Source: Gammaproteobacteria bacterium (GTDB lineage: Bacteria > Pseudomonadota > Gammaproteobacteria > DSM-16500). From it: a stretch of DNA of 61,194 bases. Shown here in pieces: positions 3,059 to 26,844 of the stretch (position 1 is the first letter of the stretch; each line of letters opens with the position of its first letter). Made by a program: the position numbers and the translations under genes. The notes under the pieces were generated by a model that had not been told where the DNA came from, searched no databases, and saw only the letters and a program-made list of their open reading frames with translations. The stretch spans positions 1 through 61,194 of the forward strand of contig DATIJV010000108.1 in NCBI GenBank assembly GCA_035478255.1, read 5' to 3'.

Positions 3059-3079
3059 AAAATCGAAAAGGAAATAGAA

Positions 3080-4102: not shown

Positions 4103-4106
4103 ATAA

Positions 4107-7100
4107 ATGAATTGGACAAGTTATTTTATAAAAAAACCCATATTATCCTTATCTCTATGCATTTTTATTTTGTTTTTTGGCGGGATGGCATTCTATCAAT
4201 TACCCTTTCGACTTGTTCCTAAAATCACTATGCCCATCATTGATGTTGAAACTGAATATGCTGGCGCATCAGCAGAAACGATACAAAGTACTTTGACAAA
4301 TGTATTGCAAAATACTTTTTTTGATTTACAAGGTATCGATTATATTCAATCCAGCAGCTCATTTGGAAAAAGTGATATCCAGATTCATTTTAAACTGGGT
4401 TGCAATGACCAGCTTCTTCTCAATAATGTTATGAATAAAATTCATTCTGTCAAACAGTTATTGCCAAAAGAAAGCGGCGATTCTATTGTCAAGAAATTAT
4501 CAGGAGATGATAAACCTGCTTTTATCATTGCATTTATGGGCCGCTCACTTTCAAATTTGGAAATCAATGATTATATCAAGCGCATGATAAAACCACGTAT
4601 CGAATTAATTCCTGATATTGCGGAAGTTGAAGTGATGGGGGAATCACCGGCAATGCGGATTTGGCTTGATCCCCATCGGTTAGATGAAAATTTTTTAACG
4701 CCGATGGACGTAGCAGAAAGTTTAAAAAATCAGAACATCACATCAAGCATTGGCATTCAAAAAACTGGCAGCACACAGTTTTTGCTCGATGCAAATAGTG
4801 CATTATTATCAGAACAGCAATTTAACCAAATCATCGTTAAATCATTAGGTGATAACGTACTTCGTCTCAAGGATATCGGGCATGCGAGTCTTGGGCCTGA
4901 TGGTAATAACATTACAACGATAGTGAATGGCACGCCTGCTACGATGGTGTTTGTAAAATTACTTCCAGAAGCCAACCCATTCGCAGTATCTAAAAAAATG
5001 AATGCCAGTTTGTCAGAGATCGAGAAAATTTTGCCAAAAAATATTCGCGCATCGGTGGTGTATGATACAAGCCGCTACATCAAATTAGCATTGTCTGATT
5101 TGACTAAAACAATTTTTATGACTTTTTTCATCATAATTGCAGTGGTTTTACTATTTCTTGGAAGTTTACGCGCAGCACTCATTCCAATTGTTGCCATACC
5201 ATTATCAATTATTGGTATGGGTTGGATCTTATGGTTGGGAAACGCATCGATTAATACATTGACTTTGCTTGCCATGGTGATTGCAATTGGTTTGGTAGTT
5301 GATGATGCGATTGTGGTCCTTGAAAATATATACCGATACCTTGAAAAGGGGATGGGAAGCAACACAGCTGCGCTAAGAGGTATAGAAGAAATGATAATAC
5401 CAGTGATCAGTATGAGCATTCTTCTTTCTGTTGCTTATTTGCCAATAATTTTTATCGGTGGATTAACAGGGAAAATTTTTAGTGAATTTGCTTTAGCATT
5501 GGCTGCTTCAGTTTTAATTTCTTGTATCGTCTCGATTATATTAACGCCCATGATGTGCTCTAAATTATTATTTTATCATAACAATCATTTTAATGAAAAA
5601 CTTATGAAAATTTTTAACTGGATGAAAGAAAGATATCAAGTAATCCTGATGCGTGTGTTAAGTTTCCGTGATGGGCATCTACTGGTAGGTCTCTTTTTTA
5701 TAATTTTATTATTAAGCGGATTATTATATTGCTCACTCCCCAAAGAACTTGCTTCTCGTGAAGATCAGGGTTTTTTGCAAATATTAGGTAAAGCACCGGC
5801 TTCTACTACTGATGCTTATTTAAAAAAATATACCAATCAATTAAATTCAATTTATCAAAAAAATTCGGAAATTGATCGATATATTTATATTAATAATGTG
5901 CCAGAAGAACATCAATTCTTATCATTTATTACACTCAAGCCAGAAAATCAGAGAAAACATTCAGCTAGAGAATTACGTTTAACAATACAGCAGCAATTGG
6001 ATGAAATTACTGGAATCAATGGAACAGTGATTGAGCCTCCTGCTTTGCCAGTGAGTGGCAGTATGCCAATAGAATTTATTTTAAAAAGTGAAATGGATTA
6101 TGGAAAATTATATCAATTAAGTGATAATTTAAAATTGCAAGCCATGAAGTCAGGAAAATTTTTATTTCTTGAGCAAGATGTGCATTTTGAGAAACCCCAA
6201 TATAATTTGAATATTGATAGAAATATAGCGGCGAATTTTGGAATCAATATCAATGATATTACCAATAATTTAAATTTAATGTTGGGCGATACTAAAATTC
6301 AGCAATTTACTATGCGAGGTGAAAATTATCCTGTTATTTTGCACATTACAAATGAGGCTGATGCTATTAACAAAATATATTTAAGAAATCAATCTGGAAA
6401 TATTGTCCCTTTAATTTCATTGATTGATATAAAAAAATCAATTAAAGCAGATTATTTAAATCAATTTCAAAAAATGCAATCGATTACGCTAAGCGGAGTT
6501 ATGCGTCCTGGATTGAGTGTGTCAGATGGATTAAATACCTTACAAAATGCGTTAAAAAAACTTTCAGATAATAACCATGTTTTAATTGATTATTCAGGAG
6601 AATCACGCGAATTAATCAAAGAAGTCAATCAGGGGTGGATTTTGTTTTTAGCAGCGTTTGTATTGATATATCTATTGCTAGCAATATTGTTTGAAAGTTT
6701 TATTTTGCCAATAATTGTTTTGTTTTCTTGCTTGCCCGGCGCTTTTTTTTCTGTACTATTTTCATTATATTTTACAAATTCCAGCATAAATCTTTATACA
6801 GAAATTGGCATGCTCACTTTAATGGGGTTAATTTCCAAGCATGGCATATTAATTATTCAATTTGCAGAAAAAATCCGACAAGACAAGAATATTTCACATC
6901 GTGAAGCAATACTAGAATCAGCCGCATTGAGGTTGCGTCCAATCATGATGACAACAGCAGCTATGTTTTTTTCAGGGTTACCATTAATCTTTTCATCCGG
7001 TGTTGGCTCTAAAAGTCATTTTGATTTAGGAATTGTGATTGTGTCAGGTATATCGATAGGAACTTTATTTGCTTTAATTTTAGTGCCATTTTTTTATTGT

Positions 7101-7157
7101 TTATTTTTTACTTTACGCTCAAAAAAATCAGACGAGGAGAATCCATGTTATATATGA
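4107..7157 (+). CDS. RND efflux permease (AcrB/HAE family inner-membrane pump)
   Basis: 1016 aa with two large periplasmic loops and 12 TM segments. 'AIGLVVDDAIVVLENI' is the conserved RND TM4 motif. Confidence 0.92.
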   Translation: MNWTSYFIKKPILSLSLCIFILFFGGMAFYQLPFRLVPKITMPIIDVETEYAGASAETIQSTLTNVLQNTFFDLQGIDYIQSSSSFGKSDIQIHFKLGCNDQLLLNNVMNKIHSVKQLLPKESGDSIVKKLSGDDKPAFIIAFMGRSLSNLEINDYIKRMIKPRIELIPDIAEVEVMGESPAMRIWLDPHRLDENFLTPMDVAESLKNQNITSSIGIQKTGSTQFLLDANSALLSEQQFNQIIVKSLGDNVLRLKDIGHASLGPDGNNITTIVNGTPATMVFVKLLPEANPFAVSKKMNASLSEIEKILPKNIRASVVYDTSRYIKLALSDLTKTIFMTFFIIIAVVLLFLGSLRAALIPIVAIPLSIIGMGWILWLGNASINTLTLLAMVIAIGLVVDDAIVVLENIYRYLEKGMGSNTAALRGIEEMIIPVISMSILLSVAYLPIIFIGGLTGKIFSEFALALAASVLISCIVSIILTPMMCSKLLFYHNNHFNEKLMKIFNWMKERYQVILMRVLSFRDGHLLVGLFFIILLLSGLLYCSLPKELASREDQGFLQILGKAPASTTDAYLKKYTNQLNSIYQKNSEIDRYIYINNVPEEHQFLSFITLKPENQRKHSARELRLTIQQQLDEITGINGTVIEPPALPVSGSMPIEFILKSEMDYGKLYQLSDNLKLQAMKSGKFLFLEQDVHFEKPQYNLNIDRNIAANFGININDITNNLNLMLGDTKIQQFTMRGENYPVILHITNEADAINKIYLRNQSGNIVPLISLIDIKKSIKADYLNQFQKMQSITLSGVMRPGLSVSDGLNTLQNALKKLSDNNHVLIDYSGESRELIKEVNQGWILFLAAFVLIYLLLAILFESFILPIIVLFSCLPGAFFSVLFSLYFTNSSINLYTEIGMLTLMGLISKHGILIIQFAEKIRQDKNISHREAILESAALRLRPIMMTTAAMFFSGLPLIFSSGVGSKSHFDLGIVIVSGISIGTLFALILVPFFYCLFFTLRSKKSDEENPCYI

Positions 7158-8074
7158 ACGATGCAAAATATTTTATTCCAGAAAAATATTTAACCATAGA
7201 ACAAGCCGGAAAATTACTTAATCTAAACGATATCGAAATAAAAGTTTATAAAAAAATTTATGGCATAGAAAAAATCCCTATTGCTCAGGAAATTCCGTTA
7301 TTGGATTTTATTAAATATCCTGTTGAAGAAATTATCAAAAATAATAACCTTAAAAAAAGCAGCATCAAATATCTGATCCATTGCCACACGGCAAAAGTAA
7401 TCGCACCTTTTGGCGATTCACTGATACGAAAAGTCAAAGAAGACCTGGGATTAAATGATACCATCGCATTTGGAACATCCATCAATAATTGTGCATCTGC
7501 CATTTCTTCCATTGATATGTTATCTCATGTTTTAGCCAGCCATGATGAATGTAATGCGATTATAGTTTGTGGTGATTATGCTTTTACTCATGTGTTGCGA
7601 TACATTCCTAACACTGCTATTTTGGGAGATGCCTCAACAGCTATTTTACTCAGTAAACAAGGAAACAAAAATAAATTGCTATCCAGTTCAATTAAAATTG
7701 CTGGAGAATATGCAGAAGGAATTTGGTTATCAGGCGATAAATTACAATCATTTGAAACTCAATACGTCCATTTATTTTCAAGTGTTATTTTAGATGCAAT
7801 CAATAAAGCAGGTTTAAAAAAAGAGCAAATTAATCTTATTATTCCGCATAACGTCAACATTCCTTCCTGGAAACGTGTGGCAGATAATATCAATATTCCA
7901 TTAGAAAAAATTTATTTAGAAAACATAAAAAAATATTCACATTGTTTTGGTTCAGATACTTTTATTAATTATGTCAGTGCAAAAAATGAAAGTAAGTTTA
8001 ATTCGGGTGATTACTATCTTATGGCAACCGTTGGCTTAGGAGCCACATTTGCTGCTGCTGTTTTTCAACATTAA
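7145..8074 (+). CDS. KAS III (FabH)-like thiolase-fold enzyme, non-canonical third catalytic motif
   Basis: Thiolase-fold length. Nucleophile context 'GTSINNCASAISS', His context 'IIPHNVN', C-terminal 'GLGATFAAAVF'. The start was moved from track position 7097 to the ATG at 7145 (gaggag RBS), overlapping the pump stop by 13 nt. Confidence 0.75.
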   Translation: MLYMNDAKYFIPEKYLTIEQAGKLLNLNDIEIKVYKKIYGIEKIPIAQEIPLLDFIKYPVEEIIKNNNLKKSSIKYLIHCHTAKVIAPFGDSLIRKVKEDLGLNDTIAFGTSINNCASAISSIDMLSHVLASHDECNAIIVCGDYAFTHVLRYIPNTAILGDASTAILLSKQGNKNKLLSSSIKIAGEYAEGIWLSGDKLQSFETQYVHLFSSVILDAINKAGLKKEQINLIIPHNVNIPSWKRVADNINIPLEKIYLENIKKYSHCFGSDTFINYVSAKNESKFNSGDYYLMATVGLGATFAAAVFQH

Positions 8075-8092
8075 AATCAAATAGGATAAGTT

Positions 8093-10579
8093 ATGCAAGA
8101 ATTAAATAAATTATTAAAGATATACAGAGAATCGTTGCTGCATGGCTTTTTAAAATCTGTTGAAAATTTTCCAGAAAGAAATGCATTGTGGGTAGATGAT
8201 CAATATTATACTTATGAAAAATTGTATCTATCTTCATTAAGAATGGCAAAAGTGTTGAGCCATTTCCAAGATGAACGTTGTGTTATTTTAACCTCTCGTC
8301 ATGTTTCAGCTTATTCTGCTGTGATTTCCGTGTTGTTAGCTGGAAAGACATATGTTCCTCTCAATGCGCACTACCTTTCAGAAATTAATTTAACTCTCTT
8401 TAATGCAGTCAATACGAATTTGATCATCATTGATAACAACCCATTAGAAACAATCAAAAATTTCATTTTAAATTGTAAAAAATCACTCATTATTTTTTCT
8501 GAGAAAAAATCTTTTTTAGAAGAGGATTTTCGTTTTTCACATCATCAATTTGTCAATATCTCCGAGAATGCTGGCTTCAATTTTAATTTTAAAAATCTAT
8601 CCCAATATGCTTATCTCATGTTTACATCGGGCAGCACAGGGAACCCTAAAGGCATCAGGGTAAGTCATCAAAACGCACTGACGTATGTGAAAAATATGGT
8701 TAATCGGTCTCAGCCCACAGAAAAAGATAAATTTAGTCAATTAGCTGAATTGACATTTGATTTTTCCGTGCATGATTTATTTGTTGCTTGGTCAGTCGGT
8801 GCGTGTGTTTATTCAATCACGGGCGCTCATTTAATACACTGGAAAAATTTTATGGATAAGCATCAGTTGACTTTTTGGGCATCGGTTCCTTCGTCTGCAA
8901 ATTTTATAAAACAAACTGGCCAGTTGAAAGAAAATATTTTTCCATCGCTGAAGTATAGTATTTTTTGCGGAGAGGTTTTGTCCGCGTCTCTTACAAAATC
9001 CTGGCAAGAGGCAGCCCCTCGATCTGTTATTGATAATTTATATGGGCCGACGGAAGCGGCGGTGGCGTGCACTGGCTATCAATGGAAAATAATGCAAAGA
9101 AATGATGAAATATTACCGATCGGAAAGCCTTTTCCATTGCAGCGCATTAAAATTATTAATAATGAATTTGAAGAAGTCAAGAAAGGTGAAATAGGCGAGC
9201 TGTGTTTATCGGGCCCGCAAGTAGTCGATTCTTATTGGCAAGATTCAAAATTAACTCATGATCGATTTATTTATTTTCCTGACGATGAACAATGCTGGTA
9301 TCGCACGCAGGATTGGGTGAAATGGGATGATACAGTCGGTTTAATTTATCAAGGAAGATTGGATGATCAGCTGAAAATTCGCGGACGATGTGTTTCAAGA
9401 TTGGAAATAGAAATGGCATTGAAAAAAATTGCTGAAACCGATTCTGTTGCAATTTTGCCTGAATCAAATTCCTCTGATGGTTTGGTGATAAATGTCATTG
9501 CATTTGTTAGTCATTCGAAGTTTTCTGCTGAATATATCAAAAAAACCGCCAGAAATATTTTGGCTGACTATATGATACCTGTGCATATCTTTGTTTTGCC
9601 AGAATTACCCAAAAATGCGAATGGAAAACTGGATTACACAGCAATGAGACATATTATGCAAGAAAATGCATTAACGAATTATTATAGTCAACAAAGTCTT
9701 ATTTCAGATCCTGGAATTTATCAATCTTATTTTGAAAATCTTTCAGACGATATCAGTCAATTATGCGAAATTCTGCATGGAATTCTTTTGCATTTTTTAG
9801 ATGCAAAATCATTTAATTGTGATGTCTTGCCTTCCCGGTTAGCCGAAATGGATTGTCGTCAAATTAAGCAAATCATACAAAAAGTTATTGAGTTGGATGA
9901 TACTCTGTTTCATAGTCCTCGAGAAATATCGAAAAAAATATTAAGTTCATGTCGTGATTTTTCACTTTTGCTCTGTTCTGTCCTGAGACATAAAAAAATT
10001 CCTGCACGGTTGCGATTTGGATTTACTGCTTTTTTATTTCCAGGATTTCATCATGACCAAACATTGATGGAATATTGGGATGAAAATAAAAAATCATGGT
10101 GTTTGATAAATGCCCGGATGAATTCTCTATTTATAAAAAAATATCATGTGAAAGCAGAAGACGATTTTTATAATGTTTCGAGGAATTCTTTTTTTGTTGC
10201 GGGTGATGCTTGGCTTCGTTGTCGTTCGGGAACCAAGCAAGCTGATCAATTTGGCACAGGAAATATTAATCGAGTGACGGGCTGGAGATATATTCGTAAT
10301 AAATTGCTGCAGGATTTCGCTGCTTTAAATAAAGTAGAAATGCTGCCTTGGGATTGTTGGGGAGTTATGTTGAGTGGTCCAGAAGATGATTTTATTCATG
10401 ATAGTAAGCAAATGGATCTATTGGATCACATTGCAGAATTGACGTTAAACCCTGATAAAAATCTTGAACAGATAAATCGAATTTACGCGGCGGAAAAAGA
10501 CTTGCAAGTTGGCAGTGAAGTTTTTTGTGATAGCTTGACAGGTGCGGGAAAGTGGGTTGCTGTCACTCGGTCGGAATAA
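8093..10579 (+). CDS. Adenylation (NRPS A-domain/DltA-like) enzyme fused to a C-terminal transglutaminase-like cysteine-protease-fold domain
   Basis: N-terminal ~520 aa: 'FTSGSTGNPKGI', 'TFDFSVHDL' (FDxS), 'NLYGPTEAAV', 'YRTQDW', 'GRLDDQLKIRG', 'PKNANGKLD'. C-terminal ~250 aa: 'SCRDFSLLLCSVLRHKKIPARLRFGF' (transglutaminase-core CRDF...IPAR motif), then 'HHDQTLMEYWDENKKSWCLIN'. No carrier (..DSL..) motif seen. Confidence 0.8.
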   Translation: MQELNKLLKIYRESLLHGFLKSVENFPERNALWVDDQYYTYEKLYLSSLRMAKVLSHFQDERCVILTSRHVSAYSAVISVLLAGKTYVPLNAHYLSEINLTLFNAVNTNLIIIDNNPLETIKNFILNCKKSLIIFSEKKSFLEEDFRFSHHQFVNISENAGFNFNFKNLSQYAYLMFTSGSTGNPKGIRVSHQNALTYVKNMVNRSQPTEKDKFSQLAELTFDFSVHDLFVAWSVGACVYSITGAHLIHWKNFMDKHQLTFWASVPSSANFIKQTGQLKENIFPSLKYSIFCGEVLSASLTKSWQEAAPRSVIDNLYGPTEAAVACTGYQWKIMQRNDEILPIGKPFPLQRIKIINNEFEEVKKGEIGELCLSGPQVVDSYWQDSKLTHDRFIYFPDDEQCWYRTQDWVKWDDTVGLIYQGRLDDQLKIRGRCVSRLEIEMALKKIAETDSVAILPESNSSDGLVINVIAFVSHSKFSAEYIKKTARNILADYMIPVHIFVLPELPKNANGKLDYTAMRHIMQENALTNYYSQQSLISDPGIYQSYFENLSDDISQLCEILHGILLHFLDAKSFNCDVLPSRLAEMDCRQIKQIIQKVIELDDTLFHSPREISKKILSSCRDFSLLLCSVLRHKKIPARLRFGFTAFLFPGFHHDQTLMEYWDENKKSWCLINARMNSLFIKKYHVKAEDDFYNVSRNSFFVAGDAWLRCRSGTKQADQFGTGNINRVTGWRYIRNKLLQDFAALNKVEMLPWDCWGVMLSGPEDDFIHDSKQMDLLDHIAELTLNPDKNLEQINRIYAAEKDLQVGSEVFCDSLTGAGKWVAVTRSE

Positions 10580-16529: not shown

Positions 16530-16610
16530 TTATAAAATACCCGCCACAGCGCAGCTGGTTAATAAAATAGTGAGTGTGAGTAAAACAGAAATTCGAAAAA
16601 CAGTTTTCAT
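16530..16610 (-). CDS. Possible 26-aa hydrophobic micro-ORF (lipobox-like LLTSC) upstream of the OMP gene
   Basis: Hand translation: MKTVFRISVLLTLTILLTSCAVAGIL. agaggga RBS about 6 nt upstream. Not in the ORF track. Could be chance in AT-rich DNA. Confidence 0.25.
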   Translation of the reverse strand: MKTVFRISVLLTLTILLTSCAVAGIL

Positions 16611-16695: not shown

Positions 16696-18147
16696 CTATG
16701 AATCCTTGCGTTTGCTGGGCTGGGGCGTCACGGACGGGCTTGATGTTGATTGACTCGAAGGGCTCGGAGAAAAAAAAGACATTGTTTTCCCTATCAAGCT
16801 TGTGTTCTTTTGTGCAACTTCACGTTTTTTAGCTTCAAGATTGTTTTCTAATTGTTGAATAAATTGCACCATATTACCGGCATTGGTAATTCCTGCTAAG
16901 CTTGCTAGATAAGTTTCACGAGTAGAGTCTCGTTTTTTTTGCGGCTCAAGACCAGCCAGTTGATCAATCAGGTTCTCTGCCCTTTGAAAATCCTCGTGCT
17001 CTGGGGGCTGGAGTTGTGGAACCAATTCTGTTAGTGTCTGAACATATTGACGGAGGTCACCTACATCGGTAAATGCTGCCAATGTGACGCGGCAACTTTC
17101 TTTATCAGCTTCTTCCTGCAATTGATTAATCAGCGCATTTGCCGCTTCTAAAAGTGGAGTCCCTTCTGTTTTGAAGGGTTCTTCTGCTCTTTTTTGAAGA
17201 ATATCTTTTTGTTCTTGATCTTTGGTATTTTTTTGTTCTTGCTGTTCCTTGATTTTCATGTCGTACACAGAGTGTATCGCATTCATGCAACCTTTTAATT
17301 GCTCAAAAGATTCAGCGGCGTCTATTTGTTGCTTCCAGTCTCTGCGGACGAGTGCTTGATTAAACGGTATTGTTTCAAGCTTAGCCAATACTTCTGCCGA
17401 TTGGTAAGCTTGTTGTTTGAGGACGTCAAATTCTATTGCGGGATGATCACTTTTAAATTTTTCAAGTTCAGGAAGAAGAGTATAATAAGTGTATTCTGAT
17501 AAACTCATTAGGTTATTGGCGCGCTTTGTGATTTCCCTAAGGCGCGCTTCATGATTCTTTGGATCAAATGATTCAAGTTCGTTAATTGCCTCGTTTGCCC
17601 GGTTTAGAACCTGTTGATATACCGGTACCGATAGCGGAGATTTGGTTTCTTCTTTTACATCGAGAAGCTGTGCTGGCGGATGGATTGTGACAGGAGCATT
17701 GTCTTGTTGATGTGGTGCAGTTAAAGTAGCTGCTGGCTGATCACTAAACTCTTTTGGCCCTTTTTTTGTATCATCAGGTGATATGCTTTCGGATATATAG
17801 CCCGTCAGCCATGTTACATGGATGTCTCGTTTTTTGTTTCTTTTTTTGACGCCTATTAGTCTTTTTAGATCCTTGGGCGGCGGCTCTAGGATTGTTATAA
17901 TGGCTTTTTGTTCCAATGATTCCATTTTTTTGAGAAGTGCCTGATAGGCAGCTGTCTGATCAATCTGAGATTCGGGGTCCTGTTCTAACATCCTAGTAAA
18001 ACTAGCATCCAATTGTGTGAGTGACTCCATAGTTTGCTTGGCGAGTATTGATTCGGCTTTACCTTTTTTGCATTTTAAAAACGCAGAACAAAAACCTTGT
18101 TTGTCTTTATCGTTAATAGCAGCATACTGATTATCTAAAATACCCAT
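16696..18147 (-). CDS. Hypothetical coiled-coil protein with Ser/Pro-rich C-terminus (no recognisable domain)
   Basis: 483-aa ORF with no signal peptide. Glu/Lys/Gln-rich helical repeats. C-terminus 'FFSPSPSSQSTSSPSVTPQPSKRKDS'. Confidence 0.6.
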   Translation of the reverse strand: MGILDNQYAAINDKDKQGFCSAFLKCKKGKAESILAKQTMESLTQLDASFTRMLEQDPESQIDQTAAYQALLKKMESLEQKAIITILEPPPKDLKRLIGVKKRNKKRDIHVTWLTGYISESISPDDTKKGPKEFSDQPAATLTAPHQQDNAPVTIHPPAQLLDVKEETKSPLSVPVYQQVLNRANEAINELESFDPKNHEARLREITKRANNLMSLSEYTYYTLLPELEKFKSDHPAIEFDVLKQQAYQSAEVLAKLETIPFNQALVRRDWKQQIDAAESFEQLKGCMNAIHSVYDMKIKEQQEQKNTKDQEQKDILQKRAEEPFKTEGTPLLEAANALINQLQEEADKESCRVTLAAFTDVGDLRQYVQTLTELVPQLQPPEHEDFQRAENLIDQLAGLEPQKKRDSTRETYLASLAGITNAGNMVQFIQQLENNLEAKKREVAQKNTSLIGKTMSFFSPSPSSQSTSSPSVTPQPSKRKDS

Positions 18148-18259: not shown

Positions 18260-19576
18260 TTAACCTACTATTTTTACGGGAAAAACACGATATTTTGTTG
18301 ATGATTGAGGCAGGGGATCGTTTTTTCGTTCATAGCAATAGGGATCTGTCGCATTGATGTTTCCATAGGCTGAAAAAGAGCGCAAATAACATCCTCCTCT
18401 ACATCCTTGATAAGATGGACAGCTTTGGCAGGCACTACTGCCTTCTAGTCCTCTAAATAATTTCATTGCAGGCCCTGAAATCCATGCATCCAACAAACTG
18501 CGGTCACGCAAATTTCCATCCACATAATGAAGAGGGCCAAAGCTGGTACAAGGTTGAATCTGTCCTTCTGCTGTAATACAAAAACTTTCTTTTCCTGCAT
18601 AACAACCAAAACCTAAATCATCAATGACAGAAGCGCTATCGTCGCCAAACTTTTGATAAGGATTAACAGGTAAAACCAGTTTGATTTTGCTTTTTTTATT
18701 ATTATAAAAATCTGCTAATATTTTCATAGACTCAATATATTCATCTTGTGTTGGAATGAGAGAAGTATGTTCTCCAGCACGACCTGCCTCGCGGACACAA
18801 TTAAATTTCACCACATCAAATTTTAAATCTTCTGCCAGCTTAATGATTTGATCTAAATGTTTGATATTTGATGTCATTAAAGTGCATTTTGCAGCAATTT
18901 TTCCAGAATAATGTTTTCGTAAATTCTGAACACCTCGAAGCATATACTGATATCTGCCGCTCCCGCGTACTTGCTCGTACGAGGTTTGGTCATATCCGTC
19001 CAAACTGATGTTGATGGTGCGAATATCCAGTCCAGCTAATTTTTTAGCGGCTTTTTCAGTGATAGGTGTGCCGCTTGTAGAAAATGACACATCAATATGA
19101 TTTGCTATGGCTCGTTCTACAACGGGGAAAAAATCACGATCCACTAAGGGTTCTCCTCCAGCGATCGATAAACGAAAACAACCCATCGCAGCCATTTGGT
19201 CTATTATAGAAAATTTCTCGACTAACGACATTTCATTCGCTCTTCTTTTACCTGATTCTGTATAACAATGAGCACATTTTTCTGGGCATTCGTAAGTAAT
19301 TTCTAAAAAAATTCGAGTCGGCGCGGACAACATGCCTTCACGTGATTGATTTCCTAAAAAATGAGAATTATCGATTAAACCCATATGATTTAATTGGTTG
19401 GTTATATCAGAAATTTCTTTATCATCTGTTTCAAAAGAAATTTTCTCAGAAGCGGTAATATCTTTTTTCGGTTCGGTTAAAATTCGCATAGCAAGATGGT
19501 CTAAATGAAAATAATCTCTTTCGATACGATCATAGGCCAAACCGCCAAAGAATTCATTCCTGATTATAAATCGCAT
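18260..19576 (-). CDS. Radical SAM/SPASM-domain peptide-modifying maturase (N-terminal RRE-like extension)
   Basis: 'YECPEKCAHCY' (CX3CX2C). 'SIAGGEPL' SAM-binding motif. C-terminal auxiliary-cluster cysteines 'GCYAGKESFCITAEGQIQPC...CQSCPSYQGCRGGCYLRS...DPYCY'. ~90-aa N-terminal extension 'FFGGLAYDRIERDYFHLD'. Confidence 0.88.
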   Translation of the reverse strand: MRFIIRNEFFGGLAYDRIERDYFHLDHLAMRILTEPKKDITASEKISFETDDKEISDITNQLNHMGLIDNSHFLGNQSREGMLSAPTRIFLEITYECPEKCAHCYTESGKRRANEMSLVEKFSIIDQMAAMGCFRLSIAGGEPLVDRDFFPVVERAIANHIDVSFSTSGTPITEKAAKKLAGLDIRTINISLDGYDQTSYEQVRGSGRYQYMLRGVQNLRKHYSGKIAAKCTLMTSNIKHLDQIIKLAEDLKFDVVKFNCVREAGRAGEHTSLIPTQDEYIESMKILADFYNNKKSKIKLVLPVNPYQKFGDDSASVIDDLGFGCYAGKESFCITAEGQIQPCTSFGPLHYVDGNLRDRSLLDAWISGPAMKLFRGLEGSSACQSCPSYQGCRGGCYLRSFSAYGNINATDPYCYERKNDPLPQSSTKYRVFPVKIVG

Positions 19577-19632
19577 TCTATTGTCCTTATTGAAAATAGT
19601 GCGCGGCCATAATTTGAGAGAATGGGGATGAG

Positions 19633-19764
19633 TTAATGATGAAAAGTTGACACTTTAAAAATTCGGAATTTTTTGGGTTTTTTGACATCTATGGTATTTT
19701 TTTTTCTATCTGTTTTTGATTTGTTTTTCATTGAGATTTTCTGAGATTTTTTGATGTTCTGCAT
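19633..19764 (-). CDS. Candidate 43-aa Lys-rich precursor-like peptide between the kinase and rSAM genes (not in the ORF track)
   Basis: Hand translation, checked codon by codon: MQNIKKSQKISMKNKSKTDRKKNTIDVKKPKKFRIFKVSTFHH. aagga RBS about 9 nt upstream. It is the only sizeable same-strand ORF I found in the 263-bp gap. AAA-rich, so it could be compositional noise. Confidence 0.4.
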   Translation of the reverse strand: MQNIKKSQKISMKNKSKTDRKKNTIDVKKPKKFRIFKVSTFHH

Positions 19765-19839
19765 TGTGTGTTATCCTTTTAAAATTTGTTTAATACAAAC
19801 TAATTGATGACACGCTCTAATATTACAAAGCGAAACATT

Positions 19840-21279
19840 TTAAAATGCAAGCTTTTTCATTTTTTTTGAGCTCACAGTTTGTTGGTTTTTTTTATTATTT
19901 TCGTAATTTGTCTCTTTAAAAAACAAAAATCGCTTATTTATTTTAAGATTAAAACAATCTTTACCGATTTTAATATCCATTTTGACATTACATTCGTTTT
20001 TTAATAGGGTTTGAACCAGACGGCACAGAATTAAGAACGAGGATATGTTTTTTTGATAGTTATTAACAAATAAATGCATTAAGACATAGAAAGATAATGC
20101 TCTTATATCTTCATTCGTTTTAATCTGTCTGATATTTTTTTGAAGTTTATATAAAATTTCACGTTCTTGAAAAGGTAATAATGCAACTTGATAAATCTGA
20201 TTATATCGAGGATAGCGATTTAAGTTTTTGCTGATGACATCACGTACTGCATTTTCATATTCTGGAGAGTTTAGCAACATAAAAGCAGATTTTATCATTC
20301 TATAACTCATCTGATAATTTTCAACAGGTGTTAAATCCAGCAAAAACAAATTTGAAATAGGTTTTTCAAAATATTGGAATGGAACCAAATGATTTTCATC
20401 AGAAAAATTTATGTAAGGCCCATGTTTTGTATTAACGAAAATAAATCCCAAGGAATAAAACAAAGTTGCCTGAATTTTATTTAATAAAAATCGCCATTCT
20501 ATTTGTTTAGATAAATTGTCGCCGTAATATTGTTGCAATAGCATATTTTCTTGTTGATGATTGAATCGCAAATAAGCTGAAATGGTTGCAATATCATATA
20601 ATCCATCTCCAATACCGACACTTTCCCAATCGATAAAAAATACTTTTTCATTTTTTTTACAAAATAGTAAATTCCATGGATGCAAATCATAATGGCACAA
20701 ATCTGATTTATAGGGCGTGAGTATTTCTTCTATGAAATTGATTATATGAATTATTTTTCGATAAAAATGTAAATGCGGATAGTCGAGTGTTAATGTTTGT
20801 ATTTCATTTAATAAAAAAGGTAGAAATTTATTTTTATGAGGAAATAATGCCTGATATTTTGTTATGTCTAATCTATGAATGGATTTTAATATATCCGCTA
20901 TTGAAATAATTGTGGCAGGTTTAATATTTTCCAGGCCAGAAAAATCATGTTGTATATATTGAAGTAAAACAATACTGTTTTTAAAATCGGCTGCTTTTAA
21001 AAATGGCGAAGCATTAATATCCGAAGCCAATTTCATGGCTAATATTTCGCATGCTTTTTCTCTTAAATTAAATTTTTCAGTTTCCTTTAAAATGTATTTT
21101 TTATTGCGATGCTCTATTAAAATAATAGTTTTTTCAAAAACACCTCTTTTCTTAAATGGAATTATTTTAAGATCATTTATTGATTTTGGATTGAAGGCAG
21201 TCAACAACATGTCGGCTATTGGATGCTTAAGCTCGCCAATCACGCAATCTTCTATTTTTTTAACCAGCTGACGTTTCAT
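19840..21279 (-). CDS. APH/choline-kinase-fold phosphotransferase with a ~150-aa C-terminal extension
   Basis: 'KKYILKE' (catalytic Lys context), 'CHYDLHPWNLLF' (HxDxxxxN), 'FIDWESVGIGDGLYDIA' (DWE/D motif). The residues after about 330 have no recognisable domain. Confidence 0.75.
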   Translation of the reverse strand: MKRQLVKKIEDCVIGELKHPIADMLLTAFNPKSINDLKIIPFKKRGVFEKTIILIEHRNKKYILKETEKFNLREKACEILAMKLASDINASPFLKAADFKNSIVLLQYIQHDFSGLENIKPATIISIADILKSIHRLDITKYQALFPHKNKFLPFLLNEIQTLTLDYPHLHFYRKIIHIINFIEEILTPYKSDLCHYDLHPWNLLFCKKNEKVFFIDWESVGIGDGLYDIATISAYLRFNHQQENMLLQQYYGDNLSKQIEWRFLLNKIQATLFYSLGFIFVNTKHGPYINFSDENHLVPFQYFEKPISNLFLLDLTPVENYQMSYRMIKSAFMLLNSPEYENAVRDVISKNLNRYPRYNQIYQVALLPFQEREILYKLQKNIRQIKTNEDIRALSFYVLMHLFVNNYQKNISSFLILCRLVQTLLKNECNVKMDIKIGKDCFNLKINKRFLFFKETNYENNKKNQQTVSSKKMKKLAF

Positions 21280-25389: not shown

Positions 25390-26844
25390 TCAAATAAAAG
25401 AATATGCAAATAACAATCTAGCGTCCCAAAGATCATAATTTTTTTGTCCAATGCTTAGATAACTCGCGCTTGCCTGAATTAATAATTTTTTTGAATATAA
25501 TGTTCTTAATCCTAACGTAAATAATCCTGACGTTTTTGGAAGACTTGCGAGAGCAAGATTGCCGCTATAAACCTGATCGTTAGATGGTCTTGTAAAGGCA
25601 TAATCAATACCAATTTCAGTATACGGCTGAATAAGAGTACCTTTTTTTGTTTTTTTCGTATAATTGCCTTCAATTTTAAATTCTGCTAATCCGAGTGCAA
25701 AATGTTCTGATTGTCGTGTAATTTGAGTCGGAATATTATTGATTGCTCCGTTAAAATCATAGGTGGGGTTTTTAAAATAAGTATAACTAATGAGTGGTTG
25801 GGGTCTGATTTGAAAACTTCCGAATTGATATAACCCCGTAGAATGCAATGTTGCATTTATTAACTTGGTAACATATTCACTATTTAGAGTAACAATAGTA
25901 TTTTTATTTTGAAACTGCCCATAATTGACAGAACCGTCAATTGCCCACTTTGGAGAAAACTGATATCCAACATACGGTCCGATTTTATAACCGCTCACAT
26001 TATTTTCTAATCCGTTATTAAACGCTGTCGTATCTAAGTGAATGGAAGATAAGGTTAAGCCGCCCACTAATTTAGTCGTAATATGACGATCAGCTCCAAT
26101 AACGAAATTAGTCGCGTCACCCGTTGTATTAACAAAATTGCGACCATCTCTGATGCCAAAATAATAATTGTCACTCCATACGTTCCAGGATTTATCTTCA
26201 TCGAGTTGTCGAGCGTGTGTAATAGGAGCAGATTGGGTGAAATTCTCTCCCCCATTATTGAGTGATTCTTGTGATACCTGTGAAGTAGGTTCAGGAATAG
26301 GATAACCTTTTTCTGGTGACCCGGGCGAGATCACAATCGGATGAGTTGGCGTTCCCGGTGACTCGGGTGGAATCACAATTGGATGTGTGGGTGTTCCTGG
26401 TGATTCAGGTGGAATTACAATCGGATGACTGGGTGTTCCTGGTGATCCGGGTGGAATTACAATCGGATGACTGGGTTCGCCAGGTTGCCAAGGTGGAAAG
26501 GGTGGGAATACGATATCACTGTTTTGATTTTGTGAATCCAGTTTTTTATTATTAGCGCTATTTATTAAATGATGTGTTCCACCATTTCCTTGTGAAACAA
26601 AAGGAGATAAGGATAATCTGAGACCTCTTTGATTTTCACTCCATTCATCAACTAATTGATTGCCCGGACCTTCAAGCTTGAATGAGCCTGCCGCATTCGT
26701 CAGGGATAGCCAGACAGATTTAGTTGAAGTGTGATTAACACCGAGAAATATCAAATTTCCTTGTAGGCCATTATCGGGAGGAGCAGCAAAACATGCAATA
26801 CTGCTTATCCATATAAGAAAAAGAGAATATCGCTTCTTAAGCAC
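25390..26844 (-). CDS. Autotransporter-type outer-membrane protein (short Pro-rich repeat passenger plus C-terminal beta-barrel)
   Basis: Signal peptide '...SSIACFA'. Four 14-aa repeats (HPIVIPPxSPGTPx). C-terminal ~270 aa of alternating beta-strand pattern ending 'LLFAYSFI'. Confidence 0.75.
   Translation of the reverse strand: MLKKRYSLFLIWISSIACFAAPPDNGLQGNLIFLGVNHTSTKSVWLSLTNAAGSFKLEGPGNQLVDEWSENQRGLRLSLSPFVSQGNGGTHHLINSANNKKLDSQNQNSDIVFPPFPPWQPGEPSHPIVIPPGSPGTPSHPIVIPPESPGTPTHPIVIPPESPGTPTHPIVISPGSPEKGYPIPEPTSQVSQESLNNGGENFTQSAPITHARQLDEDKSWNVWSDNYYFGIRDGRNFVNTTGDATNFVIGADRHITTKLVGGLTLSSIHLDTTAFNNGLENNVSGYKIGPYVGYQFSPKWAIDGSVNYGQFQNKNTIVTLNSEYVTKLINATLHSTGLYQFGSFQIRPQPLISYTYFKNPTYDFNGAINNIPTQITRQSEHFALGLAEFKIEGNYTKKTKKGTLIQPYTEIGIDYAFTRPSNDQVYSGNLALASLPKTSGLFTLGLRTLYSKKLLIQASASYLSIGQKNYDLWDARLLFAYSFI
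26315..26482. repeat. Four tandem 42-bp coding repeats (in-frame, within the autotransporter passenger)
   Basis: Units 26315-26356, 26357-26398, 26399-26440 and 26441-26482 (ggtgaYNNRggNgRaatYacaatYggatgNNtgggNgttccY). They encode the HPIVIPP(G/E)SPGTP repeats. Confidence 0.9.

What the first reader, a model, noticed from the sequence alone, without database searches (positions are those of the whole stretch)
18260..21279. Kinase - small ORF - radical SAM/SPASM cluster: candidate unclassified RiPP-like system
On the minus strand a 479-aa APH/choline-kinase-fold phosphotransferase (HYDLHPWN, IDWE...D motifs, plus a ~150-aa extension of unknown function) is followed by a 263-bp gap. The gap contains a 43-aa ORF. 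Next comes a 438-aa radical SAM enzyme with CX3CX2C, a full SPASM Cys set (seven or more C-terminal cysteines) and a ~90-aa N-terminal extension of the kind that serves as a precursor-recognition element in peptide maturases. SPASM maturases almost always act on a neighbouring ribosomal peptide. A partner kinase is reminiscent of Ser/Thr phosphorylation-elimination chemistry in class III/IV lanthipeptides. I know of no described family that combines a stand-alone APH-fold kinase with an rSAM/SPASM enzyme. No protease or transporter is adjacent. A nitroreductase is divergently transcribed, and a Ser/Pro-rich coiled-coil protein (16696-18147) follows on the same strand.
Basis: partly seen in the sequence, partly recalled or inferred. 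Interest (0 to 1): 0.8.

Follow-up and report, generated by a model that had tools for sequence, protein, structure and literature searches.

The report
Reduced peptide/radical-SAM maturase pair; kinase unlinked
The tiny gene and the radical SAM enzyme next to it are a genuine peptide/modifying-enzyme pair from a rare, apparently undescribed, horizontally spread family, but this copy has lost the family's other genes, and the neighbouring kinase, which made the cluster look special, shows no link to it.

Summary

**Supported**
- The 43-aa ORF is a real precursor peptide. Its tail RIFKVSTFHH* recurs, with synonymous codon changes, directly upstream of orthologous rSAM genes in 11 other lineages (GC 30-71%). 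A related tail (…LHM*, …SHN*) occurs in 6 Firmicute lineages.
- The rSAM has an RRE-like N-domain, CX3CX2C and a 7-Cys SPASM. Its model best matches the RiPP maturase SuiB.
- It reaches no curated family cutoff (MftC 171 bits against 265).

**Not supported**
- None of the 17 other lineages has an APH-type kinase nearby.
- The kinase's nearest relative (32% identity) sits next to unrelated genes.
- Its GC content differs from its neighbours, its relatives look like effectors, and its structural neighbours are small-molecule kinases.
- There is no phospho-lyase gene and no Cys in the peptide.

**New**
- The canonical system also has a second rSAM (16/17 intact), a MazG-like gene (13/17), an HhH-GPD-like gene (12/17) and often a P-loop NMP-kinase-like gene (9/17).
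- It is often carried on mobile elements.
- The window lacks all of these, so it holds a stripped-down two-gene module of uncertain activity.

The parts
19633..19764 (-). Precursor peptide gene (43 aa, net charge +13): MQNIKKSQKISMKNKSKTDRKKNTIDVKKPKKFRIFKVSTFHH*
   Evidence: It is an ORF with an AGGA Shine-Dalgarno sequence at 19774-19777. Orthologous peptides lie directly upstream of rSAM-A in all 17 other lineages. Gene callers called this ORF in independent assemblies.
19636..19665 (-). Conserved C-terminal core RIFKVSTFHH, immediately followed by the stop codon (19633-19635)
   Evidence: In 12 clade-1 lineages, R(-10), H(-2) and H(-1) are invariant, and I(-9), F(-8), K(-7) and S(-5) are each found in 11 of 12. 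Codons differ synonymously across loci with GC from 0.30 to 0.71. His(-2) is invariant in all 18 lineages.
18260..19576 (-). rSAM-A: radical SAM/SPASM peptide maturase (438 aa)
   Evidence: Pfam Radical_SAM 4.6e-21 and SPASM 5e-8. The best NCBIfam hit is MftC at 170.6 bits, below its 265 cutoff. There are 57 family clusters with 36-77% identity over the full length. The AF2 model has pLDDT 91. Foldseek's best match is SuiB bound to SuiA, TM 0.71, E=1.4e-21. ω is about 0.14 and the window's branch is not accelerated.
19367..19576 (-). RRE-like N-terminal domain of rSAM-A (aa 1-70; β3-α3)
   Evidence: The model gives E3-8, E11-16, E21-25, H27-34, H42-47 and H52-65 at pLDDT of about 95. E8, G11 and D26 are invariant in 50 homologues. 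The full-length structural match to RRE-bearing SuiB and CteB includes this domain. Pfam's PqqD model does not detect it.
19265..19288 (-). CX3CX2C radical SAM cluster motif (C97, C101, C104)
   Evidence: The cysteines are invariant in alignments A1 and A3.
18329..18616 (-). SPASM domain with seven invariant Cys (C325, C343, C383, C386, C392, C396, C414)
19840..21279 (-). APH/choline-kinase-fold phosphotransferase (479 aa). It is a same-strand upstream neighbour, not shown to belong to the system.
   Evidence: Pfam APH. The word-indexed search found no homologue at E<=1e-5. The exhaustive search found 10 relatives at E<=1e-30, the best 32% identical. Relatives are Tmk-APH fusions or F-box plus tandem-APH proteins. 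GC is 0.277, against 0.376 for rSAM-A. Foldseek's best matches are choline/ethanolamine kinases and APH(9).
16696..18147 (-). 483-aa helical protein with a Ser/Pro-rich tail. It occupies the position where every other lineage has more system genes, and it is not part of the family.
   Evidence: No Pfam, NCBIfam or PADLOC hit. It is absent from all other loci. A tblastn search found no remnant of rSAM-B or other partner genes in the window.

Best explanation
The 43-aa ORF and the downstream rSAM/SPASM gene (here called rSAM-A) are a genuine RiPP-type precursor/maturase pair. They belong to a rare family that is spread by horizontal transfer and appears to be undescribed.

**The family.** Its hallmark is a short, very basic, Cys-free peptide. 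The conserved core is the extreme C-terminus: …R-I-F-K-V-S-T-F-H-H-COOH in Proteobacteria and Actinobacteria, and …K-H-I-K-x-L-x-N-L-H-M-COOH or …F-F-K-V-S-T-S-H-N-COOH in Firmicutes. His(-2) is the only side chain invariant in all lineages.

**Inferred mechanism.**
1. The N-terminal RRE-like domain of rSAM-A binds the basic leader.
2. The 5'-deoxyadenosyl radical then abstracts a hydrogen from the C-terminal tail, with the two SPASM clusters handling the electrons.
3. The result would be a C-C or C-N cross-link, or an oxidative C-terminal modification, centred on His(-2). It cannot be a thioether or a Trp/Tyr cross-link, because those residues are absent.

**What the window lacks.** In the complete system a second, paralogous rSAM adds a further modification. 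MazG-like, HhH-GPD-like and NMP-kinase-like proteins, which are nucleotide-handling folds, also take part or protect the producer. All of these are missing here, so the window holds a stripped-down two-gene module. The module is intact and shows no sign of relaxed constraint, but whether it makes a finished product is unknown.

**The flanking genes.** The APH-fold kinase upstream and the 483-aa protein downstream are lineage-specific, effector-like neighbours, not conserved components.

**Shown:** peptide conservation, synteny, domain architecture and fold, absence of the partner genes, and lack of conserved kinase linkage. **Inferred:** leader binding by the RRE, the target residue and the chemistry.
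For: **Peptide**
- The identical or near-identical C-terminal decapeptide lies 8-390 nt upstream of rSAM-A in 11 other clade-1 lineages. These include Bradyrhizobium, Rhizobium and Spirillospora.
- Codon differences are synonymous across loci with GC from 0.30 to 0.71.
- A related tail is found in 6 Firmicute lineages.

**Enzyme**
- It has rSAM and SPASM domains and reaches no curated family cutoff.
- The family has 57 clusters.
- The AF2 model has pLDDT 91 with a β3α3 N-domain.
- The best structural matches are the RRE-bearing RiPP maturases SuiB, SkfB and CteB.
- The best sequence match in the PDB is PqqE.

**Canonical gene set** (counts are out of the 17 other lineages)
- Second rSAM: 16 intact, and 1 split by an IS element.
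- MazG-like: 13.
- HhH-GPD-like: 12.
- P-loop NMP-kinase-like: 9.
- APH-type kinase: 0.

**Reduced state of the window**
- tblastn with all partner proteins finds nothing in the 61-kb window.
- No rSAM-B of the expected similarity exists in the 5.8-billion-protein database, which does contain this organism's proteins.

**The pair is still intact**
- Both genes have Shine-Dalgarno sequences, and no terminator lies between them.
- All invariant residues are kept.
- ω is about 0.14. The window's branch (dN about 0.07) is no longer than that of its complete relative L003 (about 0.11).

**Kinase unlinked:**
Against: - No biochemical data exist for any family member, so the chemistry is inferred only from residue conservation and fold.
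- Full-length similarity to MftC or PqqE is a poor predictor of rSAM chemistry. The StsB case in PMC10288494 shows this.
- Pfam's PqqD model does not detect the RRE.
- Most loci have no leader protease or exporter; only L103 has an ABC-2 exporter. This is atypical for a secreted RiPP.
- The window copy is the only lineage out of 18 that lacks the second rSAM without trace, so it may be inactive.
- The kinase lies on the same strand, only 75 bp upstream of the peptide gene, with no predicted terminator. Co-transcription and a recruited role therefore cannot be excluded.
- The rest of the MAG could not be searched directly.
Confidence: 0.68

Rival explanations
1. Kinase, peptide and rSAM form one three-gene RiPP system. 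The APH-fold kinase phosphorylates Ser or Thr in the core (…KVSTFHH) for elimination or as a final modification, and the rSAM cross-links the peptide.
For: - The three genes are on the same strand and tightly spaced (75 bp and 56 bp gaps) with no predicted terminator.
- The core contains a conserved Ser-Thr pair: S(-5) in 11 of 12 and T(-4) in 10 of 12 clade-1 lineages.
- Stand-alone APH-like kinases do phosphorylate RiPP precursors in class V lanthipeptides (PMC9486802).
- Canonical clusters often contain some kind of kinase (Tmk-like, ADK or AAA_28), so a non-orthologous kinase replacement is conceivable.
Against: - None of the 17 other lineages has an APH-type kinase.
- The nearest kinase relative has no rSAM or peptide next to it.
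- No HopA1/LanY-type or other lyase is present, and the peptide has no Cys to add to a dehydro residue.
- The kinase's sequence and structural neighbours are small-molecule kinases: choline/ethanolamine kinases and APH(9).
- Its relatives have effector-like architectures with F-box and tandem APH domains.
- Its GC of 0.277 differs from the 0.376 of rSAM-A.
- The kinases in canonical clusters are P-loop NMP kinases, which act on nucleotides rather than peptides.
Confidence: 0.1
2. The window's peptide/rSAM-A pair is a non-functional relic of a once-complete cluster. It was left behind after the second rSAM and the nucleotide-handling genes were deleted and replaced by lineage-specific genes.
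For: - A second rSAM is present in 16 of 17 other lineages. The only other exception (L102) is visibly decaying: it is split by an IS element and has frameshifted Tmk and NTase genes, yet it still keeps an intact peptide and rSAM-A.
- All partner genes are absent from the window and apparently from the organism.
- The locus is flanked by composition-atypical orphan genes.
Against: - Both ORFs are intact, have Shine-Dalgarno sequences and keep every family-invariant residue.
- The sequence is identical in four independent assemblies.
- The window's rSAM-A branch is not accelerated relative to the complete L003 lineage.
- No pseudogene remnants of the partners are left, so the loss is not recent. 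Even so, the pair has stayed intact.
Confidence: 0.25
3. The family is not a conventional secreted RiPP pathway. It is a nucleotide-directed system, either an antimetabolite or toxin module or an anti-phage or plasmid-competition module. The modified peptide tail would be conjugated to, converted into, or regulate a nucleoside- or nucleotide-like molecule. The MazG, NUDIX, HhH-GPD and NMP-kinase proteins would serve biosynthesis or self-protection.
For: - Nucleotide-handling folds recur in both clades:
  - MazG-like in 13 of 17 lineages, HhH-GPD-like in 12 of 17, and Tmk-like, ADK or AAA_28 in 9 of 17;
  - an ASCH-NUDIX fusion in L010;
  - a nucleoside-deoxyribosyltransferase-like gene in L001;
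  - an NTP_transf_2-like gene of about 300 aa.
- The system is frequently located on conjugative plasmids, ICEs or IS-rich regions, beside defence-type genes.
- Proteases and exporters are generally lacking.
- Peptide-nucleotide RiPPs have precedents: microcin C (from my own knowledge) and an ADP-ribosylated triceptide (PMC12912966, listed).
Against: - No PADLOC defence model matches, apart from generic rSAM-core similarity to viperins.
- No copies were found on viral contigs.
- Both rSAMs have the RRE and SPASM architecture of peptide maturases rather than nucleotide-modifying rSAMs.
- None of the nucleotide-handling genes is in the window, so this reading says little about the window's own copy.
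Confidence: 0.2

Closest known systems
Mycofactocin maturase MftC with its precursor MftA (TIGR03962)
   Same: MftC is the best-scoring curated family for both rSAM-A (170.6 bits) and rSAM-B (134 bits). Both are rSAM/SPASM enzymes. In both systems the conserved core is the extreme C-terminus of a short peptide, and there is no dedicated exporter.
   Different: The score is well below the 265-bit cutoff. The peptide ends in …FHH, …LHM or …SHN, not …GVY. The RRE is fused to the enzyme rather than being a separate MftB. No mftD, mftE or mftF genes are present. The system has two paralogous rSAMs plus nucleotide-handling genes.
Streptide maturase SuiB/StrB, and the other RRE-bearing rSAM/SPASM maturases CteB and SkfB
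   Same: SuiB is the best full-length structural match (TM 0.71, E=1.4e-21), and the match includes the N-terminal RRE domain. The three-part architecture of RRE, rSAM barrel and SPASM is the same, and the precursor gene lies directly upstream.
   Different: Sequence identity is only 17-20%. The precursor has no Trp or Lys-Trp motif and no Cys, so the cross-link chemistry must differ.
PqqE with PqqA (PQQ biosynthesis)
   Same: PqqE is the best sequence match among solved structures (6c8v, E=2e-16). It is an rSAM/SPASM enzyme that forms a C-C bond in a short peptide destined to become a small molecule.
   Different: The NCBIfam score of 126.7 bits is far below the 381-bit cutoff. There is no Glu…Tyr motif, and no pqqB, pqqC or pqqD genes are present.
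Class V lanthipeptide dehydration pair: LanK (an APH-like kinase) and LanY (a HopA1-like lyase)
   Same: In both cases a stand-alone APH-fold kinase is encoded next to a short peptide gene with Ser/Thr in its core (PMC9486802).
   Different: Here there is no LanY/HopA1 lyase and no Cys in the peptide, and kinase and peptide do not co-occur in any other genome. The kinase's nearest structural relatives are choline/ethanolamine kinases.
Prokaryotic viperins with associated nucleotide kinases (pVip)
   Same: Both are radical SAM enzymes that recur next to Tmk- or Cmk-type kinases. PADLOC gives weak pVip hits to the rSAM core (55-71 bits).
   Different: rSAM-A and rSAM-B have an RRE and a full SPASM domain and always come with a conserved peptide. 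Viperins have none of these. Foldseek ranks viperins far below the RiPP maturases.

Membership tests
RRE-dependent rSAM/SPASM RiPP maturase (generic class) | CX3CX2C radical SAM motif | tested here: met
   C97, C101 and C104 are invariant in 50 homologues. Pfam Radical_SAM E=4.6e-21.
RRE-dependent rSAM/SPASM RiPP maturase (generic class) | SPASM domain with seven Cys for two auxiliary Fe-S clusters | tested here: met
   Pfam SPASM 33.5 bits, above the 21.5 cutoff. Seven invariant Cys: 325, 343, 383, 386, 392, 396 and 414.
RRE-dependent rSAM/SPASM RiPP maturase (generic class) | PqqD-like RiPP recognition element (β3-α3 winged helix) | tested here: met
   The AF2 model has E3-8, E11-16, E21-25, H27-34, H42-47 and H52-65 at pLDDT of about 95. 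The full-length match to SuiB covers this domain. This holds at fold level only, because the Pfam PqqD HMM is negative.
RRE-dependent rSAM/SPASM RiPP maturase (generic class) | A conserved short precursor gene that co-occurs next to the enzyme | tested here: met
   All 18 lineages have one. Conservation is at the protein level.
RRE-dependent rSAM/SPASM RiPP maturase (generic class) | Demonstrated post-translational modification of the peptide | not testable with these tools
   Requires co-expression and mass spectrometry.
Mycofactocin system (MftC, TIGR03962) | HMM score at or above the curated cutoff (265 bits) | tested here: not met
   170.6 bits.
Mycofactocin system (MftC, TIGR03962) | MftA-type precursor (C-terminal Val-Tyr) and mftB, mftD, mftE and mftF neighbours | tested here: not met
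   The peptide ends in FHH. The neighbours are a kinase, a nitroreductase and a 483-aa unknown protein.
PqqE (TIGR02109) | HMM score at or above the cutoff (381 bits), and a PqqA precursor | tested here: not met
   126.7 bits. There is no Glu-x3-Tyr peptide.
Sactipeptide or ranthipeptide maturases | Cys donors in the precursor core | tested here: not met
   The window peptide has no Cys, and neither do 15 of the 17 precursors tabulated (L089 and L006 have one each). The L009 precursor found also has none.
Lanthipeptide-type phosphorylation-elimination (classes III, IV and V) | A kinase paired with a pSer/pThr lyase (a LanKC/LanL lyase domain or a LanY/HopA1 protein) | tested here: not met
   No lyase or HopA1 domain is found in the kinase or its neighbours. 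The LanK/LanY pairing requirement is described in PMC9486802.
Lanthipeptide-type phosphorylation-elimination (classes III, IV and V) | Conserved co-occurrence of the kinase with the precursor and maturase | tested here: not met
   No APH-type kinase in any of the 17 other lineages. The nearest kinase relative lies in an unrelated context.
   No NirJ, AhbD, MoaA or other family cutoff is reached. anSME ranks below the RiPP maturases in structure and sequence comparisons. The conserved neighbour is a peptide gene.
Canonical 'twin-rSAM / …H-x-COOH peptide' cluster (the family defined here) | A second paralogous rSAM next to rSAM-A | tested here: not met
   Absent from the window, and no candidate from this organism is in the protein database. 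It is present in 16 of 17 other lineages.
Canonical 'twin-rSAM / …H-x-COOH peptide' cluster (the family defined here) | MazG-like and HhH-GPD-like accessory genes | tested here: not met
   tblastn finds neither in the window. Elsewhere they are present in 13 and 12 of the 17 other lineages.

The most novel reading that the evidence does not exclude
The complete family would make a new kind of product in which the modified His-containing C-terminal tail of a ribosomal peptide is joined to, or converted into, a nucleoside- or nucleotide-like molecule. That product could be an antimetabolite, or a weapon in plasmid or phage competition. The MazG, NUDIX, HhH-GPD and NMP-kinase proteins would act in biosynthesis or in 'house-cleaning' self-protection.

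In the window's lineage, the APH-fold kinase would have been recruited as a non-orthologous replacement for the P-loop kinases. Some members of this kinase subfamily are fused to Tmk domains elsewhere. The three genes would then form a minimal functional variant.
Probability: 0.1. Interest if true: 0.85.

Novelty: new variant of a known kind. Interest (0 to 1): 0.55.

Why it matters
rSAM/SPASM RiPP systems are a known kind, but this family appears to be uncharacterised.

- **No existing classification.** No NCBIfam, Pfam or PADLOC model claims the peptide or reaches the cutoff for either rSAM. RefSeq uses only generic names. The open literature held here contains neither the motif nor the accessions.
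- **Room for new chemistry.** The precursor has no Cys, Trp or Tyr. Its invariant features are a His at position -2 and a free C-terminus, which suggests rSAM chemistry not yet described for peptides.
- **Unusual gene association.** The persistent link with MazG-, HhH-GPD- and NMP-kinase-type genes on mobile elements, across three phyla, is unusual for RiPPs. It hints at a connection between peptide modification and nucleotide metabolism.
- **Practical value.** The C-terminal motif [IF]-x-K-[VIL]-x-x-x-H-x-stop, directly upstream of an RRE-bearing rSAM, is a usable handle for genome mining. Complete clusters that could be cloned exist, for example on the conjugative plasmid NZ_CP149876.1.
- **For this window.** The practical message is a caution. 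The feature that drew attention, the kinase, is probably coincidental, and the local copy is incomplete.

Tried and rejected
- **Curated classification of the rSAM:** no NCBIfam family cutoff is reached.
- **RRE by HMM:** Pfam's PqqD model found nothing in the N-terminal 86 aa, even at E<=10. The fold was recovered only by structure prediction.
- **Genome-collection scan with the full-length alignment:** A rescan of metagenomes with a trimmed, family-specific alignment gave only 6 loci. The viral scan gave none.
- **Kinase as an orphan:** the word-indexed search found only the query itself. The exhaustive search corrected this to a small family of distant relatives.
- **Rosetta-stone idea:** two kinase relatives are fused to Tmk domains. 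However, those domains resemble housekeeping Tmk more than the cluster-type Tmk-like protein. I treat the link as generic only.
- **Downstream gene of the nearest kinase relative:** it has the same length (438 codons) and gap (264 bp) as in the window, but it proved to be a haemagglutinin-type exoprotein, not an rSAM.
- **dN/dS:** dS is saturated for most pairs, so only a rough ω of about 0.14 and a three-taxon branch comparison were usable.
- **Defence-system models:** PADLOC gave only generic viperin-core similarity.
- **Rfam scan of the gap:** nothing.
- **Accessory proteins against the PDB:** only remote hits or none.
- **Taxonomic placement from housekeeping protein clusters:** no named relatives at 90% identity.
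- **Literature:** searches for the motif, the gene combination and the RefSeq accessions returned nothing relevant.
- **Vibrio tubiashii homologue:** the contig look-up for P0034 failed.

Full report
**1. Observation**

- The APH-like ORF is 479 aa (19840-21279). It has the CHYDLHPWN and IDWE…GD motifs, and Pfam APH scores E=5.5e-12.
- A 263-bp gap follows. It holds a 43-aa ORF at 19633-19764.
- The rSAM ORF is 438 aa (18260-19576). It has C97-x3-C101-x2-C104 and Pfam Radical_SAM and SPASM domains.
- Seven Cys downstream of the barrel are invariant in 50 homologues.
- The 43-aa ORF and the rSAM each have an AGGA/AAGGA Shine-Dalgarno sequence 8-9 nt before the ATG.
- No terminator-like site separates kinase, peptide and rSAM.
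- The same gene order occurs in four independent contigs, so it is not a misassembly.
- The window is chromosomal: it carries rpoD, dnaG, mutL and an AcrB-type pump. It comes from an AT-rich uncultured bacterium with no named close relative.

**2. The small ORF is a real, conserved precursor**

The rSAM, here called rSAM-A, has 57 full-length family clusters with 36-77% identity. They come from Bradyrhizobium, Rhizobium, Burkholderia, Vibrio, the actinomycete Spirillospora, Clostridia and many metagenomes. Scores then drop sharply to generic SPASM proteins.

I could read the DNA of 17 other lineages. In every one, a short ORF lies on the same strand next to rSAM-A. It is 8-390 nt upstream in all but L009, where it follows the second rSAM.

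| Clade | Lineage | C-terminal tail |
|---|---|---|
| 1 | window | KKFRIFKVSTFHH* |
| 1 | closest relative, L003 | KKKRIFKVSTFHH* |
| 1 | Bradyrhizobium | KKRRIYKISTFHH* |
| 1 | Spirillospora | KRKRIFKVSTFHH* |
| 1 | others | RIFKISTMHH*, RIFRISMFHH*, RIFKVSTLHH*, RFFKVRTDHH* |
| Firmicutes | four lineages | KKHIK[KV]L[SK]NLHM* |
| Firmicutes | one lineage | KIKPLDELHM* |
| Firmicutes | one lineage (L009) | KKRFFKVSTSHN* |

- The codons of the conserved tail differ synonymously between loci whose GC content runs from 0.25 to 0.71. Selection therefore acts on the peptide, not on the DNA.
- The leaders are very basic: net +5 to +14 in all but the 12-residue L006 peptide. The window's is +13.
- The peptides are essentially free of Cys and have no Trp.
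- The features shared by all 18 lineages are His at -2, an aliphatic residue at -6, Ile or Phe at -9, and a stop codon directly after position -1.

**3. rSAM-A is built like a RiPP maturase but belongs to no curated family**

- The best NCBIfam hit is MftC at 170.6 bits (cutoff 265), followed by NirJ2, PqqE and WgkB, all far below their cutoffs.
- An AlphaFold2 model built from 50 homologues has mean pLDDT 91.
- Residues 1-65 fold as β-β-β-α-α-α, which is the topology of a PqqD-like RiPP recognition element. Pfam's PqqD HMM does not see it.
- Foldseek's best full-length matches are SuiB bound to its peptide (TM 0.71, E=1.4e-21), then SkfB and CteB. PqqE and anSME follow, and viperins and MoaA rank much lower.

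**4. The family's true partners are missing from the window**

I annotated all loci against a reference panel and with Pfam and NCBIfam. This gives the following core gene set.

| Component | Other lineages with it (of 17) | Notes |
|---|---|---|
| Peptide | 17 | |
| Second rSAM | 16 intact | Split by an ISL3 insertion in L102. A paralogue of about 390 aa with the same N-domain in clade 1; about 300-330 aa without it in Firmicutes |
| MazG/PRA-PH-like protein of about 110-120 aa | 13 | |
| HhH-GPD-like protein (TIGR03252-like) | 12 | |
| P-loop NMP-kinase-like gene | 9 | Tmk-like in 6 (including one between the two rSAMs in L009), ADK in 2, AAA_28 in 1 |
| APH-type kinase | 0 | |

Further details:
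- Often present as well are a TPR protein and a protein of about 300 aa weakly similar to NTP_transf_2.
- Occasionally present are an ASCH-NUDIX fusion, a nucleoside-deoxyribosyltransferase-like gene and, in one locus, an ABC-2 exporter.
- Several loci lie beside MobA/TraD, relaxase/TrwB or IS elements.
- One complete cluster sits on a conjugative Rhizobium plasmid, where RefSeq names the genes only generically.
- PADLOC has no model for the system, and no viral contig carries it.
- In the window, tblastn with all partner proteins finds nothing.
- A database search with the closest relative's rSAM-B finds no protein of the similarity expected from this organism. The best non-self hit is 55% identical and belongs to another lineage. 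At least 12 of the 21 hits share a contig with an rSAM-A hit.

The window therefore holds only the peptide and rSAM-A.

**5. Is the reduced pair alive?**

- dS is saturated. Where it can be calculated, ω is about 0.10-0.15.
- In a three-taxon comparison, the window's rSAM-A branch (dN about 0.07) is no longer than that of L003, which has the complete core (about 0.11).
- All family-invariant residues, both ribosome-binding sites and the peptide's invariant tail are intact.
- Against this, the only other lineage without an intact second rSAM (L102) is visibly decaying, yet it also still has an intact peptide and rSAM-A. Intactness alone is therefore weak evidence.
- I rate 'still active on its own' at roughly even odds.

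**6. The kinase**

- The word-indexed search found no homologue.
- The exhaustive HMMER search found 790 relatives at E<=1e-3 but only 10 at E<=1e-30. The best is 32% identical over residues 25-390.
- That relative lies between rpmB, an unknown gene and a haemagglutinin-type exoprotein, with no peptide in the 264-bp gap.
- Other relatives are tandem APH proteins with F-box domains, or APH-Tmk fusions. The fused Tmk domains look like housekeeping Tmk rather than the cluster type (low weight).
- The AF2 model has pLDDT 83.6 and is confident to about residue 350. It matches choline/ethanolamine kinases, LicA, APH(9) and APH(2''). The sequence-level PDB search agrees.
- The gene's GC of 0.277 (GC3 0.231) contrasts with 0.376 for rSAM-A and 0.41-0.43 for the flanking genes.
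- Stand-alone APH-like kinases do dehydrate RiPP precursors in class V lanthipeptides, but only with a HopA1-like lyase partner (PMC9486802). No such lyase is present here, and the peptide has no Cys.
- The kinase is thus most simply a lineage-specific small-molecule or effector-type kinase that happens to be adjacent.
- A recruited role cannot be excluded, because it is co-oriented with the peptide gene and only 75 bp upstream of it.

**7. Mechanism (inferred)**

1. The RRE-like domain binds the basic leader.
2. rSAM-A generates a 5'-deoxyadenosyl radical and abstracts a hydrogen from the C-terminal tail.
3. The SPASM clusters complete an oxidative cross-link or a C-terminal modification involving His(-2).
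4. In complete systems the second rSAM adds another modification, and the nucleotide-handling proteins either extend the chemistry or protect the producer.

The absence of Cys, Trp and Tyr excludes thioether, streptide-type and darobactin-type links. Similarity to MftC or PqqE cannot be taken as evidence for their chemistry; the StsB case in PMC10288494 shows this.

**8. Comparison and novelty**

- The pair meets every sequence- and structure-level criterion of an RRE-dependent rSAM/SPASM RiPP maturase with a cognate precursor.
- It fails the membership tests for mycofactocin, PQQ, sactipeptides and ranthipeptides, lanthipeptide-type dehydration, viperins and anSME.
- I found no NCBIfam, Pfam or PADLOC model for the family. 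The open literature held here contains neither the motif, the gene combination nor the accessions. Non-open-access RaS-RiPP atlases could not be searched and may list it as an uncharacterised cluster.
- I classify it as a new variant of a known kind.
- Interest is moderate. The family is real and chemically intriguing, but the kinase link that motivated the finding is unsupported and the window's copy is incomplete.

Noticed in passing
window 16552-16570 and 21252-21270: A 19-nt inverted repeat with 18 of 19 bases complementary (CAGCTGGTTAATAAAATAG / CTATTTTTTTAACCAGCTG) brackets the four-gene block of the 483-aa protein, rSAM-A, the peptide and the kinase. The right arm lies inside the first codons of the kinase (I6). 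It could mark a former mobile unit, or it could be chance in AT-rich DNA.
   Followed up: no
window 19840-21279: The kinase gene has much lower GC (0.277, GC3 0.231) than rSAM-A (0.376) and the flanking genes (0.41-0.43). This suggests a separate, probably horizontal, origin.
   Followed up: partly
proteins P0083-P0090 (relatives of the window kinase): The kinase's small subfamily includes APH-thymidylate-kinase fusions (P0084 and P0089) and proteins with F-box domains plus two or three tandem APH domains (P0083, P0085, P0087, P0090). These are effector-like architectures typical of bacteria that live in eukaryotic hosts.
   Followed up: partly
window 16696-18147: A 483-aa, largely helical protein with a Ser/Pro-rich C-terminal tail has no Pfam, NCBIfam or PADLOC match. 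It sits exactly where other lineages carry the second rSAM. The tails of kinase relatives P0082 and P0084 are similarly Ser/Pro-rich.
   Followed up: no
window 25390-26844: An autotransporter β-domain protein with tandem P-x-H-P-I-V-I-[PS]-P-[GE]-S-P-G-T-P repeats in its passenger region.
   Followed up: no
window 32820-34190: A protein with Schlafen/AlbA_2 and HATPase_c_4 domains, an architecture often seen in defence or regulatory contexts.
   Followed up: no
window 1508-10579: Two AMP-binding (acyl-adenylate-forming) enzymes flank an AcrB-type RND pump, and a MatE transporter lies upstream. This may be a small-molecule synthesis and export locus.
   Followed up: no
L102 11015-14378: This copy of the canonical cluster is caught in decay. 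The NTase-like and Tmk-like genes are frameshifted and rSAM-B is split by an ISL3 transposase, while the peptide and rSAM-A remain intact.
   Followed up: yes
L107 (Rhizobium sp. T1473 plasmid NZ_CP149876.1, 153446-159693): A complete canonical cluster lies on a conjugative MOBQ/MPF_T plasmid from a cultured strain. It is annotated only as hypothetical proteins, dTMP kinase, radical SAM proteins and a pyrophosphatase. The peptide gene is not in the distributed gene table. It is a practical source for experiments.
   Followed up: partly
L009 11254-12957: In Clostridiaceae bacterium M8S5 the operon order differs: rSAM-A, Tmk-like, second rSAM, peptide, HhH-GPD-like, MazG-like. Its peptide tail (FFKVSTSHN*) resembles the proteobacterial type more than the other Firmicute tails.
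   Followed up: partly
L007 11779-12520: An NTP_transf_2 and HEPN pair, which is toxin-antitoxin-like (MNT/HEPN), lies just downstream of the Firmicute operon. Its relation to the system is unknown.
   Followed up: no
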